Source of the DNA: Escherichia coli
GTDB lineage: Bacteria > Pseudomonadota > Gammaproteobacteria > Enterobacterales > Enterobacteriaceae
Assembly: GCF_041248615.1 (NCBI RefSeq)
Contig: NZ_CP158426.1
Reading direction: 5' to 3' (one strand)
Length of the DNA stretch: 64,000 bases
The notes under the pieces are model-generated. The model did no database searches. It had not been told where the DNA came from and saw nothing but the letters and a program-made list of their open reading frames with translations. The translations under genes and the position numbers were made by a program. The number at the start of each line of letters is the position of its first letter. The first letter of the stretch is position 1. Shown one piece after another: positions 10,468-24,001 of this stretch.

Positions 10468-10478
10468 TGGATTTGCCC

Positions 10479-11384
10479 CTATATTTCCAGACACCTGTTA
10501 TCACTTAACCCATTACTGGCCTGCTGCCGCAGATATTCCCGTGGCGAGCGATAACCCAGTGCACTATGCGGATGCCATTCGTTATAATGCTCGAACGCCT
10601 CTGCAAGGTTCTTTGCTGCCGTTAACCCGTCTGGTTTAGGCATGATACTGATGTAGTCACGCTTTATCGTTTTCACGAAGCTCTCTGCTATGCCGTTACT
10701 CTCCGGACTCCGCACCGCCGTGTTCTTCGGTTCAAGCCCCAATATCCGGGCAAACTGCCGTGTTTCATTAGCCCGGTAGCATGAACCATTATCCGTCAGC
10801 CACTCTACTGGAGACGCCGGAAGCTCGTTGCCGAAGCGGCGTTCCACCGCTCCCAGCATGACGTCCTGTACTGTTTCACTGTCGAAGCCGCCCGTAGTGA
10901 CTGCCCAGTGCAGTGCCTCACGGTCACAGCAGTCCAGCGCGAACGTGACTCGCAGTTTTTCTCCGTTATCACAGCGGAACTCGAACCCGTCAGAGCACCA
11001 TCGTTGATTGCTTTCTTTCACGGCCACTTTGCCAGTATGTGCCCGTTTCGATGGCGGTACAGCGGTTTTTCGCTCAAGCAACAGCGCATTCTGGCGCATG
11101 ATCCGGTAAACACGTTTGGCATTGATCGCAGGCGTACCATCAAGTTCGGCCTGTCTGCGAAGCAGCGCCCATACCCGACGATAACCATACGTGGGCAGCT
11201 CTCCGATAACATGGTGTATACGGAGAAGCACATCCGTATCATCTGAGTGACGGCTGCGGCGACCATCTTTCCAGTCATCGGTTCGTCTGAGAATTACGTG
11301 CAACTGCGCACGCGACACCCGGAGACAACGGCTGACTAAGCTTACTCCCCATCCCCGGGCAATAAGGGCGCGTGCGCTATCCAC
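10479..11384 (-). CDS. insD: IS2 OrfB (InsD), DDE transposase catalytic component
   Basis: 301-aa ORF starting [15 protein letters not shown]...; overlaps insC as expected for programmed -1 frameshifting in this family. Confidence 0.9.
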
Positions 11385-11707
11385 TTTTTTGCACGCCCGT
11401 ATTCAACGGCTTCTTTAAGGAGTTCATTTTCCATCGTTTTTTTGCCGAGCAGGCGCTGGAGTTCTTTAATCTGCTTCATGGCAGCAGCAAGTTCAGAGGC
11501 AGGAACGACCTGCTCTCCTGCGGCCACAGCAGTAAGACTTCCCTCCTGGTATTGCTTGCGCCAGAGAAATAACTGGCTGGCTGCCACACCGTGTTGCCGG
11601 GCAACAAGGGAGACCTTCATTCCCGGTTCAAAACTCTGCTGAACAATAGCGATCTTTTCCTGTGTAGTACGCCGTCTGCGTTTCTCCGGTCCTAAGACAT
11701 CAATCAT
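11342..11707 (-). CDS. insC: IS2 OrfA (InsC), helix-turn-helix transposase component
   Basis: ORF 11342..11752 trimmed to [13 protein letters not shown] (121 aa). Confidence 0.9.
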
Positions 11708-11798
11708 CTGCTCTCCAATGACTAGTCTAAAAACTAGTATTAAGACTATCACTTATTTAAGTGATATTGGTTGTCTGGAGATTCATGGGGCCAGTCTA

Positions 11799-17205: not shown

Positions 17206-20129
<2,924 letters not shown>

Positions 20130-20211
20130 CTAAACTTTCAGGAGATTTATTATGAATAAACGTATCCTCACGATTATGCCATTCTTCTTACCGATATTCT
20201 GACACACATCA

Positions 20212-21138
20212 TTAACTTTCTATTTTTACTCTTTTCTCCACCATAAAATCAATAAAAGCACGAACTTTAGAGGGCATTCTCACCCGTGATGAAACATATA
20301 TATAAAATCCAGGAAATGAAACGGCCCAATCCTCAAGAATCGGCTGTAACTTGCCCGCATTGATATGTTCAGCGATTGCAAAATCCAGATGTTGAATGAT
20401 ACCCGTTCCATTCAGCGCCATTCGTATCATGCTTTCGTCATCATTAGAAATATACTTACCTGAAACCTCTATTTCGAACTCTTCATTACCCCCCACAACA
20501 TTAGAAAACTCCCATGCAGAGAGTGCACCGCTACTTTTATGCCGCAACCGAAGGCAATTATGGTTACTCAGTTCCTGAGGCGTTTCAGGAATACCGTGTT
20601 CTTTTAAATAATCTGGCGATGCCACAGTAACCAGTTTAATAAGCGGAGAAACAGGAACGGCAGTCATATGCTCATCCAGTCCTTGCTCAAGACGTATGCC
20701 CACATCACAGCCGTCCGCAATAATGTTAGATAAACCGTCATCCATAATGAGTTCTATCTTTGTTTTGGGGTAACGAGTAAGAAACTCGCCAATATGAGGC
20801 TCAACAAGCATCCGTGCTGCAACACGGGAGGAATTTATTCTCAACAGGCCTGTAGGTTCAAGTTGGGTATCACCAACATCTTTCAAAGCATCATCAATTT
20901 GCCCCAAAGCCGACACCAGCACTTCATACAGACGCTGTCCTTCCTCAGTAAGCGACATATTGCGGGTCGTACGGTATATCAGCTTGGTGTTAAGACGTTC
21001 CTCAAGAGATTTTAAATTCTGGGACAATGCGGCCCGCGTAATACCCATTTCAGAAGCGGCTCTGGAAAAACTGCCGGCACGAACAATAAGCGCAAACCAG
21101 GCAAGAGAAGGCAAAATTGAAGGCTCTATTTTCATCAT
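20212..21138 (-). CDS. LysR-family transcriptional regulator, divergent from the hydrolase/oxidoreductase pair
   Basis: ORF 20212..21201 trimmed to MMKIEPSILPSL... (308 aa); LysR helix-turn-helix. Confidence 0.85.
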   Translation of the reverse strand: MMKIEPSILPSLAWFALIVRAGSFSRAASEMGITRAALSQNLKSLEERLNTKLIYRTTRNMSLTEEGQRLYEVLVSALGQIDDALKDVGDTQLEPTGLLRINSSRVAARMLVEPHIGEFLTRYPKTKIELIMDDGLSNIIADGCDVGIRLEQGLDEHMTAVPVSPLIKLVTVASPDYLKEHGIPETPQELSNHNCLRLRHKSSGALSAWEFSNVVGGNEEFEIEVSGKYISNDDESMIRMALNGTGIIQHLDFAIAEHINAGKLQPILEDWAVSFPGFYIYVSSRVRMPSKVRAFIDFMVEKRVKIES

Positions 21139-21294
21139 TGTAAACCTTAACTTAACACTGTGATAGATATTAGACCATTGATGATAACCAATACAAGTCA
21201 TACTATTACGCCGTTCTCGATATGAACACGAATGCCAGTTGCGGATAATAGAAATGATATTTAAATCTGTTTAGGCAAATCCCCGGAGCTTGAA

Positions 21295-22215
21295 ATGAAA
21301 ACTGTTTCGATAAAACATACTTACTGGGATATAGCTGCTGATATCTATTTCCCTGACGATTTTAATAGTGAAAAAAAGTATCCTGCCATTATCAGCGCCC
21401 ATCCAATTGGAAGCTGCAAAGAACAGACATCGGGTAGTGTGTATGGTGCCGCCCTGGCAAAAGCTGGCTTTATCGTCATTGCTTTTGATGCCAGTTTTCA
21501 GGGAAGCAGCGGTGGAGAACCGCGTTATCTGGAAGATCCAACAATGCGAGTAAAAGACTTCAGCATTGTCGTTGATTACCTTACCACCTTACCTTACGTT
21601 GATGCCGGGCGTATTGGTGTACTGGGTATTTGTGGTGGAGGTGGATATGCCATTAATGCCGCAATGACAGAACGTCGAATTAAAGCTATTGGTACTGTCA
21701 CGGGTGCAAACTACGGGCGTCTTATGCGTGAGGGATTTACAGCGTTTAATCCTATCGGAGCACTCGAAGCGATGGCGCAACAAAGAACAGACGAAGCTAA
21801 CGGCGCAAAACTTCGCGTAGATGATTTACTCCCCTCTTCTCCGGATGCAGCTCTTGAAGCGGGATTAACAGAAATAGACCTTTTTGAAGCCACAGAATAT
21901 TATCGTTCGCCACGAGGCTGTGCACCTAATGGGGTAAATCGTTCGCTATTCTCACATCAGACTGTTGCCGTGGGTTGGGATGCATTTCATCTTGCAGAAG
22001 TCCTGTTAACTCAACCAATAATGGTTGTGGTGGGCGATAGAGTGGGCGCATTTGGTGCCTACCGTGACGGCTGCGAAATTATTGGCCGCGCTGCCTCAAA
22101 ACATAAAGAGCTGGTCGTGGTTGAAGGTTATTCACATTACGACCTGTATGATAAGCCAGAACCTGTGAAACAGGCACTCGAAAAATTAATTCCTTTTTAT
22201 AAAACACATTTGTAA
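21295..22215 (+). CDS. Alpha/beta hydrolase with a Cys nucleophile elbow (dienelactone-hydrolase-like), cytoplasmic
   Basis: 306-aa ORF; GICGGGG in the position where serine hydrolases carry GxSxG; no signal peptide. Confidence 0.75.
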   Translation: MKTVSIKHTYWDIAADIYFPDDFNSEKKYPAIISAHPIGSCKEQTSGSVYGAALAKAGFIVIAFDASFQGSSGGEPRYLEDPTMRVKDFSIVVDYLTTLPYVDAGRIGVLGICGGGGYAINAAMTERRIKAIGTVTGANYGRLMREGFTAFNPIGALEAMAQQRTDEANGAKLRVDDLLPSSPDAALEAGLTEIDLFEATEYYRSPRGCAPNGVNRSLFSHQTVAVGWDAFHLAEVLLTQPIMVVVGDRVGAFGAYRDGCEIIGRAASKHKELVVVEGYSHYDLYDKPEPVKQALEKLIPFYKTHL

Positions 22216-22387
22216 TAATCTTACAGGGAGATTCCTTATCTCCCTGACATTTATCCTTTATTGACTACACAACAACAATAAAATTACTCAAAAAGAATTC
22301 TATTAAAGGAAAAAAGCATCAAAAAGTAGCAACTCAACTTATTAAGATTATACGCATTAAAATCAGATAAACATTTGAGGTATTGTT

Positions 22388-23530
22388 ATGACAAATAAAC
22401 ACCCATCATTGTTTTCTCCTTTTATGCTGACAGAAAAAATAAAGCTACGTAATCGTATCGTTATGGCCCCTATGACGACCTGGTCAGCGAATCCTGATGG
22501 AACCATCTCTGAGCAAGAACTCGAATTTTATAAACGCCGCTCACAAAATGTTGGTTTAGTAATAACAGGATGTACCTATGTCACGCCAAGCGGCATTGGG
22601 TTTACTCATGAATTTGCCGCGTATGACGACCGTTTCATTAACAGCCTTGAAAAGTTAGCAGCGGCAGCCAAAAGTGGCGGTGCTCCGGCTATTTTGCAGA
22701 TTTTCCACGCCGGTAATAAAGCCATCCCGGAGCTTGTACCAAATAACGATGTTATTAGTGCCAGCGCATCAAGCGTAAAATCTGGTGACTTTATGAAGAG
22801 AGTGGTACAAAGCAGGGAAATGACTGAAAACGAAATTCAGGAAACCATTAGAGCATTCGGAGATGTCACAAAAAGGGCGATTAAAGCAGGTTTTGATGGC
22901 ATTGAACTTCATGGTGCGCACGGATTCCTTCTACAGAATTTCTTCTCCCCTCTATTTAACCAGCGTAATGACCGATGGGGAGGAGATCTCGAAAGACGTA
23001 TGCGATTCCCGCTGGCCGTATTACAGGAAGTAAAAAATGTAGTCTATGAATATGCGACAAAGCCCTTTGCCATCGGTTACAGAATATCTCCTGAAGAATC
23101 TGCAACAGGGGGGCTGCGGATAGAGGATACTTATAAACTCCTTGATCGGCTCATTGCATCCGGTATTTCGTATATACATACCTCGCTGGTCAGTATTAAC
23201 GATAGCTACCCTGTTGAGTCGCCAAATGGCCCCCGAACTATTGAATTGATTTTAAATCATATTGCAGGCAGAGTGCCGGTAATCGCTGCAGGTAAAATAC
23301 GCACACCGTCTCAGGCTCAAGAAGCAATTTCCACTGGCCTGCCACTTGTTGCGATCGGTAAAGGGCTGGTGATAAATCCAGAATGGGTGACTTTAGCTGA
23401 ATCAGGTAGAAGCCATGAAATTCAAACAACCCTTAATCCACAACTTGTTCCTGAATTAACCATTCCGGATAAACTATGGGATCAAATTCAGGCATCGAAA
23501 GGAACTGGCTGGTTTCCGTTAATGGATTAA
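22388..23530 (+). CDS. Old Yellow Enzyme-family NADH:flavin oxidoreductase (ene-reductase)
   Basis: 380-aa ORF with a typical OYE N-terminus (...VMAPMTT...) and TIM-barrel flavoprotein length. Confidence 0.8.
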   Translation: MTNKHPSLFSPFMLTEKIKLRNRIVMAPMTTWSANPDGTISEQELEFYKRRSQNVGLVITGCTYVTPSGIGFTHEFAAYDDRFINSLEKLAAAAKSGGAPAILQIFHAGNKAIPELVPNNDVISASASSVKSGDFMKRVVQSREMTENEIQETIRAFGDVTKRAIKAGFDGIELHGAHGFLLQNFFSPLFNQRNDRWGGDLERRMRFPLAVLQEVKNVVYEYATKPFAIGYRISPEESATGGLRIEDTYKLLDRLIASGISYIHTSLVSINDSYPVESPNGPRTIELILNHIAGRVPVIAAGKIRTPSQAQEAISTGLPLVAIGKGLVINPEWVTLAESGRSHEIQTTLNPQLVPELTIPDKLWDQIQASKGTGWFPLMD

Positions 23531-24001
23531 ATATCTATTACTCTCCCGAGTGTAAAACTATCAAACCAATGAGTAACCGATACAGCCTCGCAAATTCTTT
23601 CAGATAATTAACCCGTCACTGCGGCACGTTCTCTCATAAGGCGTGCCTGCTGTGTAATCCAGTATGGATCCAGCATAGTTGACGGCTTAATAGACTCAAT
23701 TCCTTTCCCAGGTTACCAACAACGATATCTTGTATAACACCCCAGAAGATACGACATTATGATGAGATGAGGTATGCTCCTCAGCGCCAATCAACGCCAG
23801 GGCTGGGCCAGTTTTGAGATCAGACTCATTCCCGGACTGACTTCAGGCGACATATATCAATGACGTTGGGGCAATAAAAGATAGCCGATGTAATACATCT
23901 ATTCAAATTTGTGATACATGTCAAAAAATTGGTTGACCAAACTCGTTATTTATATAAGGGCACTTACGAAGTGCACTCTTTTTTAAAGCGAGGAAGTACC
24001 A

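What the first reader, a model, noticed from the sequence alone, without database searches (positions are those of the whole stretch)
20212..22215. Two paralogous LysR / Cys-hydrolase divergent pairs 20 kb apart, one hydrolase exported
The LysR (20212..21138) and hydrolase (21295..22215) pair has a counterpart at LysR 42228..43112 and hydrolase 40905..42041. The hydrolases share long blocks (RIGVLGICGGGGYAINAA vs RIGLLGICGWGGMALNDV; ELVVVEGYSHYDLYD vs ELVVVPGANHVDLYD) with Cys in place of the usual Ser nucleophile. Only the second has a signal peptide, suggesting cytoplasmic and periplasmic versions of the same chemistry under separate regulators.
Basis: seen in the sequence. Interest (0 to 1): 0.55.

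Follow-up and report, generated by a model that had tools for sequence, protein, structure and literature searches.

The report
Two LysR-paired cysteine hydrolase cassettes
This E. coli strain carries two separately acquired gene cassettes, each a LysR regulator next to an alpha/beta hydrolase of the YcjY/PA2218 family. That family uses cysteine where most relatives use serine, has solved structures but no known substrate, and here has one member in the cytoplasm and one probably exported to the periplasm.

Summary
Hyd1 (21295..22215) and Hyd2 (40905..42041) are homologous over their whole length (32% identity, E 4e-44), and each lies divergent to a LysR gene.

Both belong to the YcjY (PDB 5XB6) / PA2218 (PDB 2HDW) family. 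In the AlphaFold model the cysteine sits exactly at the nucleophile elbow, and it is nearly invariant across the family. The histidine is at its canonical position. The canonical acid after strand 7 is Ala family-wide, so a Cys-His-Asp triad is not confirmed.

Hyd2 very probably has a Sec signal peptide (cleavage SYA|D). RefSeq's shorter start call would remove it.

The pairs are not a local duplication:
- Each hydrolase is closer to orthologues in other phyla than to its partner here.
- The cassettes differ in GC content.
- Both cassettes are absent from K-12.
- The two LysRs are the least similar pair among those compared.

E. coli has a third such pair, ycjY-pgrR. Across 78 genomes the recurring partners are a LysR, a tandem YcjY-type paralogue and an NmrA-like reductase.

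The closest characterised relatives are the fungal polyketide thioesterases GrgF (Cys) and DcsB (Ser). The substrate remains unknown. I rate this a new member of a known but uncharacterised family, of modest interest.

The parts
19119..20012 (-). LysR_A. A third LysR of the same subfamily, beside two aldo-keto reductase genes. It is the closest relative (47%) of PgrR, the LysR partner of YcjY.
20212..21138 (-). LysR_B, the regulator divergent to Hyd1. It is 52% identical to the LysR divergent to the Hyd1 orthologue in Paraburkholderia.
21139..21294 (.). Divergent promoter region of LysR_B and Hyd1. It has a GGAG Shine-Dalgarno sequence 7 nt before the Hyd1 ATG. It holds the only GGTCTAAT in the 64-kb window (about 21169-21176, minus strand); that 8-mer occurs twice in the ycjY-pgrR intergenic region of K-12.
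21295..22215 (+). Hyd1, a cytoplasmic YcjY-family Cys alpha/beta hydrolase of 306 aa. Cys113 codon at 21631..21633, His281 codon at 22135..22137, KEQ motif at residues 42-44.
22388..23530 (+). OYE-family NADH-dependent flavin oxidoreductase downstream of Hyd1. No terminator-like site was found between the two genes, so co-transcription is likely. The K-12 pseudogene ykgP lies in the surviving 3' stretch and is probably the remnant of this gene (overlap inferred, not aligned).
39636..40763 (-). DHA1-type MFS transporter downstream of Hyd2. In this window a TGG-to-TAG nonsense change at 39853 truncates it. The gene is intact in NZ_OW967178.1.
40905..42041 (-). Hyd2, a PA2218-type Cys alpha/beta hydrolase precursor of 378 aa. 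Cys168 codon at 41538..41540 (the only Cys in the protein), His353 codon at 40983..40985.
41952..42041 (-). Predicted Sec signal peptide of Hyd2, residues 1-30, MKAFTRTLKTAMPTMLLFASLSGVTTMSYA|D.
42042..42227 (.). Divergent promoter region of Hyd2 and LysR_C. It contains ATTAAT-N6-ATTAAT, CTAATCA and a perfect TATAAT. E. coli and Yersinia share TTTATAAC, CTCTAAT, CTA(A/C)CTATAAT and one ATTAAT copy, with Dickeya more divergent; the full interrupted repeat is present only in E. coli and, as TTAAT-N8-ATTAA, in Dickeya.
42228..43112 (+). LysR_C, the regulator divergent to Hyd2. The same LysR-hydrolase-MFS arrangement occurs in Dickeya and Yersinia.
43673..43903 (+). C-terminal LysR remnant, the counterpart of K-12 yagP. 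It is not part of either functional pair.

Best explanation
The window holds two independent accessory cassettes. Each consists of a LysR-type regulator transcribed divergently from a member of the YcjY/PA2218 family of alpha/beta hydrolases.

Proposed catalytic mechanism (inferred, not shown): these enzymes use a cysteine thiol at the nucleophile elbow (Hyd1 Cys113, Hyd2 Cys168) and the canonical histidine after strand 8 (His281, His353). The thiol attacks an acyl carbonyl (ester, lactone or thioester). This forms a thioester acyl-enzyme, which His-activated water then hydrolyses. The catalytic acid is non-canonical or absent.

Proposed roles (inferred): Hyd1 is cytoplasmic and probably co-transcribed with an OYE ene-reductase. 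Hyd2 is made with a Sec signal peptide, acts in the periplasm and is followed by an MFS transporter. Each LysR is expected to bind the shared intergenic region and switch on its hydrolase operon in response to the substrate or a related small molecule, by analogy with PgrR at ycjY.

Shown here: family membership, position and conservation of Cys and His, cassette boundaries, and recurrence of the LysR pairing. Inferred: export, regulation, and the nature of the substrate. My favoured substrate is an electrophilic or unsaturated ester or lactone that is passed to a reductase.
For: Family membership:
- PDB sequence hits to 5xb6 and 2hdw.

Cys at the elbow:
- Model secondary structure places it there.
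- Ser of 9pjb, 7qjm and DcsB, and Cys of GrgF, align to it.
- Cys is present in 96 of 107 family representatives, and all ~75 hydrolase ORFs from diverse phyla in which the elbow could be read have it.
- His281 is present in 85 of 99 ungapped sequences.
- GrgF is described as a cysteine hydrolase/thioesterase (bioRxiv 10.1101/2020.12.16.421545).

Export of Hyd2:
- The N-terminal 30 aa are conserved across ten proteins named for nine genera of Enterobacterales, with a variable sequence but a retained hydrophobic core and an SYA|D/G site.
- There are 3 K/R and no D/E in the first 25 residues. E. coli-Yersinia differences are biased to third codon positions.
- Hyd2 has a single Cys whereas Hyd1 has four.
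- 36 of 107 family representatives have a similar hydrophobic N-terminal extension.

Regulation:
- A LysR of the same subfamily occurs in 28 of 78 loci, mostly divergent.
- LysR-Hyd2-MFS is conserved in Dickeya and Yersinia.
- PgrR binds the ycjY/ycjZ intergenic region and controls ycjY-ymjDC-mpaA (PMC5934670).

Reductase link:
- An NmrA-like gene lies downstream in 14 loci.
- K-12 ymjC is its N-terminal remnant, 54% identical over 46 aa.
- An OYE gene follows Hyd1 here and in 3 other loci.
Against: - No member of the family has a demonstrated substrate, so 'hydrolase' is itself an inference.
- The canonical acid is missing (Ala at G247+3; position 248 is E/S/D; position 139 is D/N/C).
- I had no coordinates with which to measure a triad.
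- No dedicated signal-peptide predictor was available.
- PGAP prefers the internal start at 41963, which also has a GGAG 8 nt upstream.
- No binding or expression data exist for LysR_B or LysR_C.
- The MFS partner of Hyd2 is nonsense-mutated in this strain.
Confidence: 0.6

Rival explanations
1. A LysR-hydrolase unit was duplicated within the E. coli lineage, and one copy then gained a signal peptide. This is the implied reading of 'paralogous pairs'.
For: The architecture is the same (divergent LysR plus the same hydrolase family) and the two units lie 20 kb apart.
Against: - Identity is only 32% (hydrolases) and 29% (LysRs).
- Hyd1 is 81% identical to a Paraburkholderia orthologue and 76% to Mycobacterium and Rhodococcus orthologues. 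Hyd2 matches PA2218 at E 3e-125.
- The trees disagree: hydrolases group as ((Hyd1,YcjY),Hyd2), regulators as ((PgrR,LysR_A,LysR_C),LysR_B).
- GC is 0.44-0.46 versus 0.54-0.57.
- Each unit is a separate insertion/deletion relative to K-12.
- Exported and cytoplasmic clades exist family-wide.
Confidence: 0.03
2. The enzymes are acyltransferases, condensing enzymes or polymerases rather than hydrolases. The Cys would carry an acyl group that is passed to an acceptor, as in GrgF chain fusion, Fma-AT acyl transfer, or the proposed short-chain PHB polymerase role of YcjY.
For: - YcjY was proposed as a cPHB polymerase from its GXCXG motif (Rychlewski, cited in PMC3709699).
Against: - No PKS, ACP or CoA-ligase genes were seen among the recurrent neighbours.
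- A periplasmic Hyd2 would have no thioester donors.
- GrgF keeps an Asp at the canonical acid position while this family has Ala there.
Confidence: 0.15
3. They are peptidases for cell-wall or other peptides. This is suggested by YcjY lying in the PgrR peptidoglycan-recycling regulon next to mpaA, ycjG and mppA, and by the Pfam Peptidase_S15/S9 hits.
For: Peptidase_S15 is the best Pfam hit (E 7.5e-10 for Hyd1, 5.9e-6 for Hyd2). The K-12 context is ycjY-ymjD-ymjC-mpaA (PMC5934670).
Against: - The Pfam hits cover only the generic N-terminal core.
- In other genomes the neighbours are reductases and a second paralogue, not murein genes.
- ymjC is the remnant of an NmrA-like gene that once separated ycjY from mpaA, so the mpaA adjacency looks secondary.
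Confidence: 0.1
4. Hyd2 starts at the internal ATG at 41963, as RefSeq annotates, and is cytoplasmic. The upstream 26 codons would then be untranslated leader.
For: The PGAP call gives 352 aa. A GGAG lies 8 nt upstream of the internal ATG. Several database entries are 352 aa.
Against: - The upstream frame is open and conserved as protein across genera, with signal-peptide-type variation.
- E. coli-Yersinia differences in codons 1-26 are 3/5/11 by codon position.
- A GGGGA lies 5 nt before the ATG at 42041.
- The protein has a single Cys.
- The PA2218 chain and one third of family representatives carry comparable extensions.
Confidence: 0.15
5. They are quorum-quenching acyl-homoserine lactonases of the UilS type.
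For: The best NCBIfam hit is UilS lactonase, at 75 and 65 bits.
Against: The curated cut-off is 400 bits, and the match covers only the N-terminal half of the model. No AHL synthase or receptor was seen in the neighbourhood.
Confidence: 0.05

Closest known systems
E. coli YcjY (PDB 5XB6) with its divergent LysR regulator PgrR (YcjZ)
   Different: YcjY is core in K-12 and sits next to murein-peptide genes. Hyd1 is accessory and sits next to an OYE reductase. YcjY has Ser where Hyd1 has Asp248. In many bacteria a YcjY-type gene and a Hyd1-type gene lie in tandem, so they are distinct subfamilies.
Pseudomonas aeruginosa PA2218 (PDB 2HDW), a structural-genomics 'hypothetical protein'
   Same: Hyd2 is its close homologue (E 3e-125 over residues 23-375). 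Both have GICGWGG, an N-terminal extension, Asp after strand 6 and YYxxPRG(Y/F)H.
   Different: The function of PA2218 is unknown. Its neighbourhood was not examined here.
Fungal trans-acting polyketide alpha/beta hydrolases GrgF (PDB 6LZH) and DcsB (PDB 7D78)
   Different: Identity is only 18-21%. They act on PKS-bound acyl thioesters, and no PKS is present here. GrgF keeps the canonical Asp. DcsB uses Ser.
Dienelactone hydrolase (ClcD type, Cys-His-Asp; from general knowledge)
   Same: An alpha/beta hydrolase with Cys at the nucleophile elbow, and several conserved Arg residues that could bind a carboxylate.
   Different: The Pfam DLH match is weak and partial (E 7.5e-5 and 8e-3). The proteins are larger, with a roughly 100-residue cap. 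The canonical Asp position is Ala.

Membership tests
YcjY/PA2218 family of alpha/beta hydrolases | Full-length sequence and fold similarity to 5XB6 and 2HDW | tested here: met
YcjY/PA2218 family of alpha/beta hydrolases | G-[ILVM]-C-x-x-G nucleophile elbow plus the K-E-Q motif after strand 3 and H-x-D-L-Y-D after strand 8 | tested here: met
   Hyd1 has GICGGGG, KEQ at 42-44 and HYDLYD. Hyd2 has GICGWGG, KEQ at 98-100 and HVDLYD. Family frequencies: Cys 96/107, KEQ 104-106/107.
Cys-His-Asp catalytic triad (dienelactone-hydrolase type) | Cys at the strand 5/helix turn | tested here: met
   AF2 DSSP gives strand 102-112, C113, helix 114-125. Ser of 9pjb, 7qjm and 7d78 aligns to it.
Cys-His-Asp catalytic triad (dienelactone-hydrolase type) | His in the loop after strand 8 | tested here: met
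   H281 directly follows strand 271-280. It aligns to the His of GrgF, 7qjm and 9pjb.
Cys-His-Asp catalytic triad (dienelactone-hydrolase type) | Conserved Asp in the loop after strand 7 | tested here: not met
   The position aligned to the Asp of GrgF/7qjm (G247+3) is Val in Hyd1 and Ala in 73/107 family members. Position 248 is E31/S27/D18. Position 139 after strand 6 is D62/N28/C10. No coordinates were available to measure distances.
Pfam DLH (PF01738) | Significant full-domain match | tested here: inconclusive
   E 7.5e-5 over residues 28-131 only (Hyd1). E 8.4e-3 over residues 139-188 (Hyd2).
Serine peptidases S15/S9 | Ser nucleophile in GxSxG | tested here: not met
   Cys is at that position. 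The Pfam matches cover only the N-terminal core.
UilS acyl-homoserine lactonase (NCBIfam NF047920) | Score above the curated cut-off of 400 bits | tested here: not met
   75 and 64.6 bits, N-terminal half only.
LysR-type transcriptional regulators | N-terminal HTH plus LysR substrate-binding domain, about 300 aa | tested here: met
   Full-length matches to many LysR models. The best is YafC at 192 bits, below its equivalog cut-off of 470. RefSeq names them 'LysR family transcriptional regulator'.
LysR-type transcriptional regulators | Divergent transcription from the regulated gene, with an interrupted palindromic box in the shared region | tested here: inconclusive
   The divergent arrangement is met. 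ATTAAT-N6-ATTAAT lies upstream of a TATAAT at Hyd2, with TTAAT-N8-ATTAA in Dickeya. No clear palindrome was found at Hyd1. No binding data exist.
Sec-dependent signal peptide (Hyd2) | Positive n-region, hydrophobic h-region, small residues at -3/-1 | tested here: met
   MKAFTRTLK / TAMPTMLLFASLSGVTTM / SYA|D. Kyte-Doolittle mean is 2.0 over 10 aa. It is conserved in nine genera. No dedicated predictor was available.
Sec-dependent signal peptide (Hyd2) | Actual cleavage and periplasmic location | not testable with these tools
   Needs a PhoA fusion or N-terminal sequencing.
Fungal polyketide-releasing thiohydrolases (GrgF/DcsB; UniProt 'af380' family recalled from memory) | Homology over core and cap | tested here: met
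Fungal polyketide-releasing thiohydrolases (GrgF/DcsB; UniProt 'af380' family recalled from memory) | Partner PKS or carrier protein in the gene cluster | tested here: not met
   No such gene was found among recurrent neighbours in 78 loci or in the window.

The most novel reading that the evidence does not exclude
The YcjY/PA2218 family is a large, biochemically untouched clade of thiol-dependent alpha/beta hydrolases (about 4,100 clusters at 50% identity with E <= 1e-10). It would have a non-canonical active site: Cys-His with Asn/Asp/Cys after strand 6 instead of the strand-7 Asp, plus an invariant Lys-Glu-Gln. It would work with a small NAD(P)H reductase (NmrA-like or OYE) in a widespread pathway for an unsaturated or electrophilic ester or lactone. 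The Hyd1 type is conserved at 60-80% identity from E. coli to actinobacteria and fungi. The pathway would have parallel cytoplasmic and periplasmic branches, each under its own LysR sensor.
Probability: 0.2. Interest if true: 0.55.

Novelty: new member of a known kind. Interest (0 to 1): 0.32.

Why it matters
The family has two crystal structures, thousands of members and a core E. coli representative (YcjY), but no known substrate. This strain carries three LysR-paired members in one genome: a cytoplasmic one with an ene-reductase, an exported one with a transporter, and ycjY-pgrR. That makes a convenient system for finding the inducers and substrates, because each LysR should report its own ligand. 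Both cassettes are deleted in K-12, which may help explain why they have not been studied. The practical value is in functional annotation rather than in a new principle.

Tried and rejected
- Literature searches for YcjY, PA2218, 5XB6, 2HDW, thiohydrolase, Bref-TH, Fma-AT and DcsB found no biochemical study of the family.
- NCBIfam gave no above-threshold family for the hydrolases, the NmrA-like partner or the Cyclophil_like2 partner.
- The Foldseek AFDB50 top 50 are all generically named; no characterised enzyme and no 'af380' entry appeared. My recollection that UniProt places YcjY in the 'polyketide transferase af380 family' therefore stays untested.
- Model coordinates are not exposed, so triad geometry could not be measured.
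- I looked for NmrA-hydrolase fusions among long family representatives and found none. The single 516-aa AFDB entry named 'NAD(P)-binding domain-containing protein' may be a merged gene call.
- The promoter/terminator scan was uninformative, with counts at shuffle level near Hyd1.
- The idea that K-12 yagP is the remnant of LysR_C was rejected. yagP matches the separate remnant at 43673..44022.
Full report
**1. Where the window comes from**

The window is E. coli chromosome. It is 100% identical over the two query stretches (19100-23600 and 39800-43200) to NZ_LT599825.1 and essentially identical to NZ_OW967178.1. The gene order is betBA, ykgEFG, rclRABC, fdeC, two aldo-keto reductases, two LysR genes, a hydrolase, an OYE reductase, ykgR/ykgMO, ecp, pao, an MFS gene, a hydrolase, a LysR gene, thrW and proAB.

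**2.

- Hyd1 (21295..22215, 306 aa) and Hyd2 (40905..42041, 378 aa) align over their whole length at 32% identity, E 4e-44.
- The adjacent LysRs align at 29% identity, E 5e-48.
- Both pairs are divergently transcribed, across 156 bp and 186 bp.

**3. The hydrolase family**

Pfam and NCBIfam give only weak, partial matches: Peptidase_S15, PETase, DLH, and sub-threshold UilS lactonase.

The PDB is much clearer.
- Hyd1 matches E. coli YcjY (5XB6) at E 4e-67 and P. aeruginosa PA2218 (2HDW) at E 6e-44.
- Hyd2 matches PA2218 at E 3e-125 and YcjY at E 2e-43.
- An AlphaFold model of Hyd1 built on 73 family sequences has pLDDT 96.7.
- A family profile matches GrgF and DcsB over core and cap, at E 2e-24 and 3e-25.

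No paper in the library describes an activity for YcjY or PA2218. YcjY was once proposed as a short-chain PHB polymerase because of its GXCXG motif (PMC3709699). The Foldseek AFDB50 hits all carry generic names.

**4. Active site**

In the model, Cys113 sits between strand 102-112 and helix 114-125, which is the nucleophile elbow. His281 directly follows strand 271-280.

Ser-dependent relatives place their Ser on this Cys: GLSMGG in 9PJB, GISLGG in 7QJM and GMSFGG in DcsB. GrgF has a Cys there (GLCFGG). GrgF is described as a cysteine hydrolase/thioesterase (bioRxiv 10.1101/2020.12.16.421545) that fuses two polyketide chains (PMC8902786).

Family-wide conservation:
- Cys is present in 96 of 107 50%-identity representatives, and in every one of the ~75 ORFs from 78 genomic loci where the elbow could be read (the other few were fragments or lacked a regex match). 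Those loci span Proteobacteria, Actinobacteria, Bacteroidota, Firmicutes and others.
- A Lys-Glu-Gln motif after strand 3 is even more conserved, at 97-99%.

The third triad member is not where it should be.
- The position aligned to the Asp of GrgF and 7QJM (G247+3) is Ala in 73 of 107 sequences and Val in Hyd1.
- Position 248 is Glu/Ser/Asp: Asp in Hyd1, Glu in Hyd2, Ser in YcjY.
- Position 139, after strand 6, is Asp 62 / Asn 28 / Cys 10: Asn in Hyd1 and YcjY, Asp in Hyd2.

Cys and His are therefore confirmed. A Cys-His-Asp triad is not. I could not measure geometry because coordinates are not exposed.

**5. Signal peptide of Hyd2**

From the ATG at 42041 the protein begins MKAFTRTLKTAMPTMLLFASLSGVTTMSYA|DSTNP.
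- It has three basic residues and no acidic residue in the first 25.
- It has a hydrophobic core and small residues at -3 and -1.
- Hyd1 has nothing comparable.

The 30 residues are conserved as a signal-peptide-type sequence in Klebsiella, Rahnella, Leminorella, Erwinia, Yersinia, Dickeya, Leclercia, Buttiauxella and Serratia, plus a Hafnia entry shown in full only. The letters vary but the character and the SYA|D/G site are kept. E. coli-Yersinia nucleotide differences in these codons are 3/5/11 by codon position.

Hyd2 has one cysteine, the nucleophile. Hyd1 has four. That fits residence in the oxidising periplasm.

One third of family representatives (36 of 107) carry a similar hydrophobic N-terminal extension. 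Exported and cytoplasmic forms are therefore an old, family-wide split.

The caveat is that PGAP starts the gene at Met27 (41963). That site has a GGAG 8 nt upstream, while the long form has GGGGA 5 nt upstream. I put export at about 0.8.

**6. Not a local duplication**

- Hyd1 is 75-82% identical to proteins of Burkholderia, Cupriavidus, Pseudomonas, Stenotrophomonas, Rhodococcus, Mycobacterium and a Firmicute. It is about 60% identical to fungal proteins. It is only 32% identical to Hyd2.
- Among LysRs, LysR_B versus LysR_C is the least similar pair (29%). LysR_B is 52% identical to the LysR divergent to the Paraburkholderia Hyd1 orthologue. LysR_A (19119..20012) is 47% identical to PgrR and 42% to LysR_C.
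- The hydrolase and regulator trees disagree.
- GC is 0.44-0.46 for LysR_B-Hyd1-OYE and 0.54-0.57 for MFS-Hyd2-LysR_C.
- Relative to K-12, window 17207..23438 and 39512..43672 are each missing as a block. This leaves ykgP, which lies in the retained 3' stretch and is probably the OYE remnant. It also leaves yagP, which matches the separate LysR remnant at 43673..44022 and not LysR_C.
- The Hyd1 block is complete in 1782 of 5426 complete E. coli genomes, and the Hyd2 block in 912.

**7. A recurring module**

E. coli K-12 already has a third instance: ycjY divergent to pgrR (ycjZ). PgrR binds that intergenic region and controls ycjY-ymjDC-mpaA (PMC5934670).

Across 78 loci from diverse species, the recurrent neighbours are as follows:
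- a LysR of this subfamily in 28 loci, mostly divergent at position -1 or -2;
- a second, YcjY-type paralogue immediately upstream of the Hyd1-type gene in at least 12 loci;
- a 210-aa NmrA-like NAD(P)-binding protein in 14 loci, mostly immediately downstream;
- AraC-type regulators in 15 loci;
- a probable TetR-type regulator (assigned by eye from the representative sequence, not searched) in 7 loci;
- the OYE reductase in 4 loci.

K-12 ymjC is the N-terminal remnant of that NmrA-like gene, 54% identical over 46 aa. The ancestral ycjY operon therefore also carried a reductase.

Hyd2-type genes keep the LysR-hydrolase-MFS order in Dickeya and Yersinia. They are repeatedly next to a Cyclophil_like2 protein.

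The Hyd2 intergenic region shares a block from TTTATAAC... through CTCTAAT... to CTA(A/C)CTATAAT between E. coli and Yersinia, with Dickeya more divergent. The ATTAAT-N6-ATTAAT repeat itself is complete only in E. coli, with a TTAAT-N8-ATTAA variant in Dickeya.

GGTCTAAT occurs once in the whole window, in the Hyd1 intergenic region, and twice in the ycjY-pgrR region. This is suggestive of related operators, but the motif is short.

**8. Interpretation**

The best-supported reading is two independently acquired LysR-controlled cassettes encoding thiol-dependent alpha/beta hydrolases of one uncharacterised family.
- Hyd1 is cytoplasmic and is followed by an ene-reductase, with no terminator-like site found between them.
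- Hyd2 is exported and is followed by an MFS transporter, which carries a nonsense mutation in this strain.

The inferred chemistry is acyl-thioester covalent catalysis on an ester, lactone or thioester. The recurrent reductase partners and several conserved arginines (R77, R128, R164, R207) suggest a carboxylate-bearing, possibly unsaturated, substrate. That last step is speculation.

Rivals are listed with weights in the Rival explanations section: acyl transfer or polymerisation as in GrgF, murein-peptide peptidase, AHL lactonase, and a cytoplasmic Hyd2 from the internal start.

**9. Verdict**

The finding is real and well described, but it concerns a known family. Two structures and a named E. 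coli member with a LysR partner already exist, and the 'paralogous pairs' are ancient family members rather than a duplication. Novelty: new member of a known kind. Interest is about 0.3.

Noticed in passing
window 39853 (MFS gene 39636..40763, minus strand): A single-base difference from NZ_OW967178.1 turns a Trp codon into TAG. This truncates the MFS transporter downstream of Hyd2 by about 70 residues in this strain.
   Followed up: yes
window 10470..11797: A 1.3-kb insertion relative to NZ_OW967178.1, with an 8-bp overlap at the junction. It encodes IS2-type InsC/InsD proteins and interrupts the AraC-type HTH gene (the ykgA homologue).
   Followed up: partly
window about 43960..44200, next to tRNA-Thr (thrW): The window carries two tandem copies of a roughly 120-bp unit (CAATGGCACAAATACGGCACA...GTGAGGTAACT) where NZ_OW967178.1 is 120 bp shorter. 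This may be att-site debris at the thrW integration hotspot.
   Followed up: partly
window 17207..23438 and 39512..43672: Both blocks are absent from K-12 MG1655. The K-12 pseudogene ykgP lies in the stretch retained at the edge of the first deletion and is probably the 3' remnant of the OYE gene; I did not align it directly. yagP corresponds to the LysR remnant at 43673..44022, not to LysR_C. A ykgR fragment is annotated at 43324..43392.
   Followed up: yes
L008 7681..7934 (K-12 ymjD/ymjC): ymjC is the N-terminal remnant (54% identity over 46 aa) of the NmrA-like NAD(P)-binding gene that follows Hyd1-type hydrolases in other bacteria.
   Followed up: yes
L006, L019, L021, L024-L026, L029, L033, L036-L039, L041, L042, L068, L078: Many bacteria carry a YcjY-type gene (GICAGAGY, NHMDLYD) and a Hyd1-type gene (GICGGGGY, SHYDLYD) in tandem. 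This suggests the two subfamilies work together; in E. coli they are at separate loci.
   Followed up: partly
window 21169..21176; 17159; 42148; L008 8855..8991: GGTCTAAT is unique in the window and lies in the Hyd1/LysR_B intergenic region, while it occurs twice between ycjY and pgrR. GTCTAAT also lies 60 nt upstream of the aldo-keto reductase operon. CTAATCA lies in the Hyd2/LysR_C region. These may be related LysR operator half-sites.
   Followed up: partly
window 20212..23530: The LysR_B-Hyd1-OYE block has GC 0.44-0.46, against about 0.50 for its flanks. Yet Hyd1 is 76-82% identical in protein sequence to orthologues named for Burkholderia and Mycobacterium, genera generally known to be GC-rich (their GC content was not measured here). 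This points to horizontal transfer under strong purifying selection.
   Followed up: partly
L009 6234..6743, L010 7601..8104, L090 3576..3998: A small Cyclophil_like2 (PF18050) protein recurs next to exported PA2218-type hydrolases. It is missing from the E. coli cassette.
   Followed up: no
AFDB50 hits A0A6N7CMT5 and A0AAD9IH99: A 516-aa 'NAD(P)-binding domain-containing protein' is 77% identical to Hyd1 over 305 residues. An 875-aa Prototheca protein is 59% identical. These could be fusions or merged gene calls, and they would bear on the reductase link.
   Followed up: no
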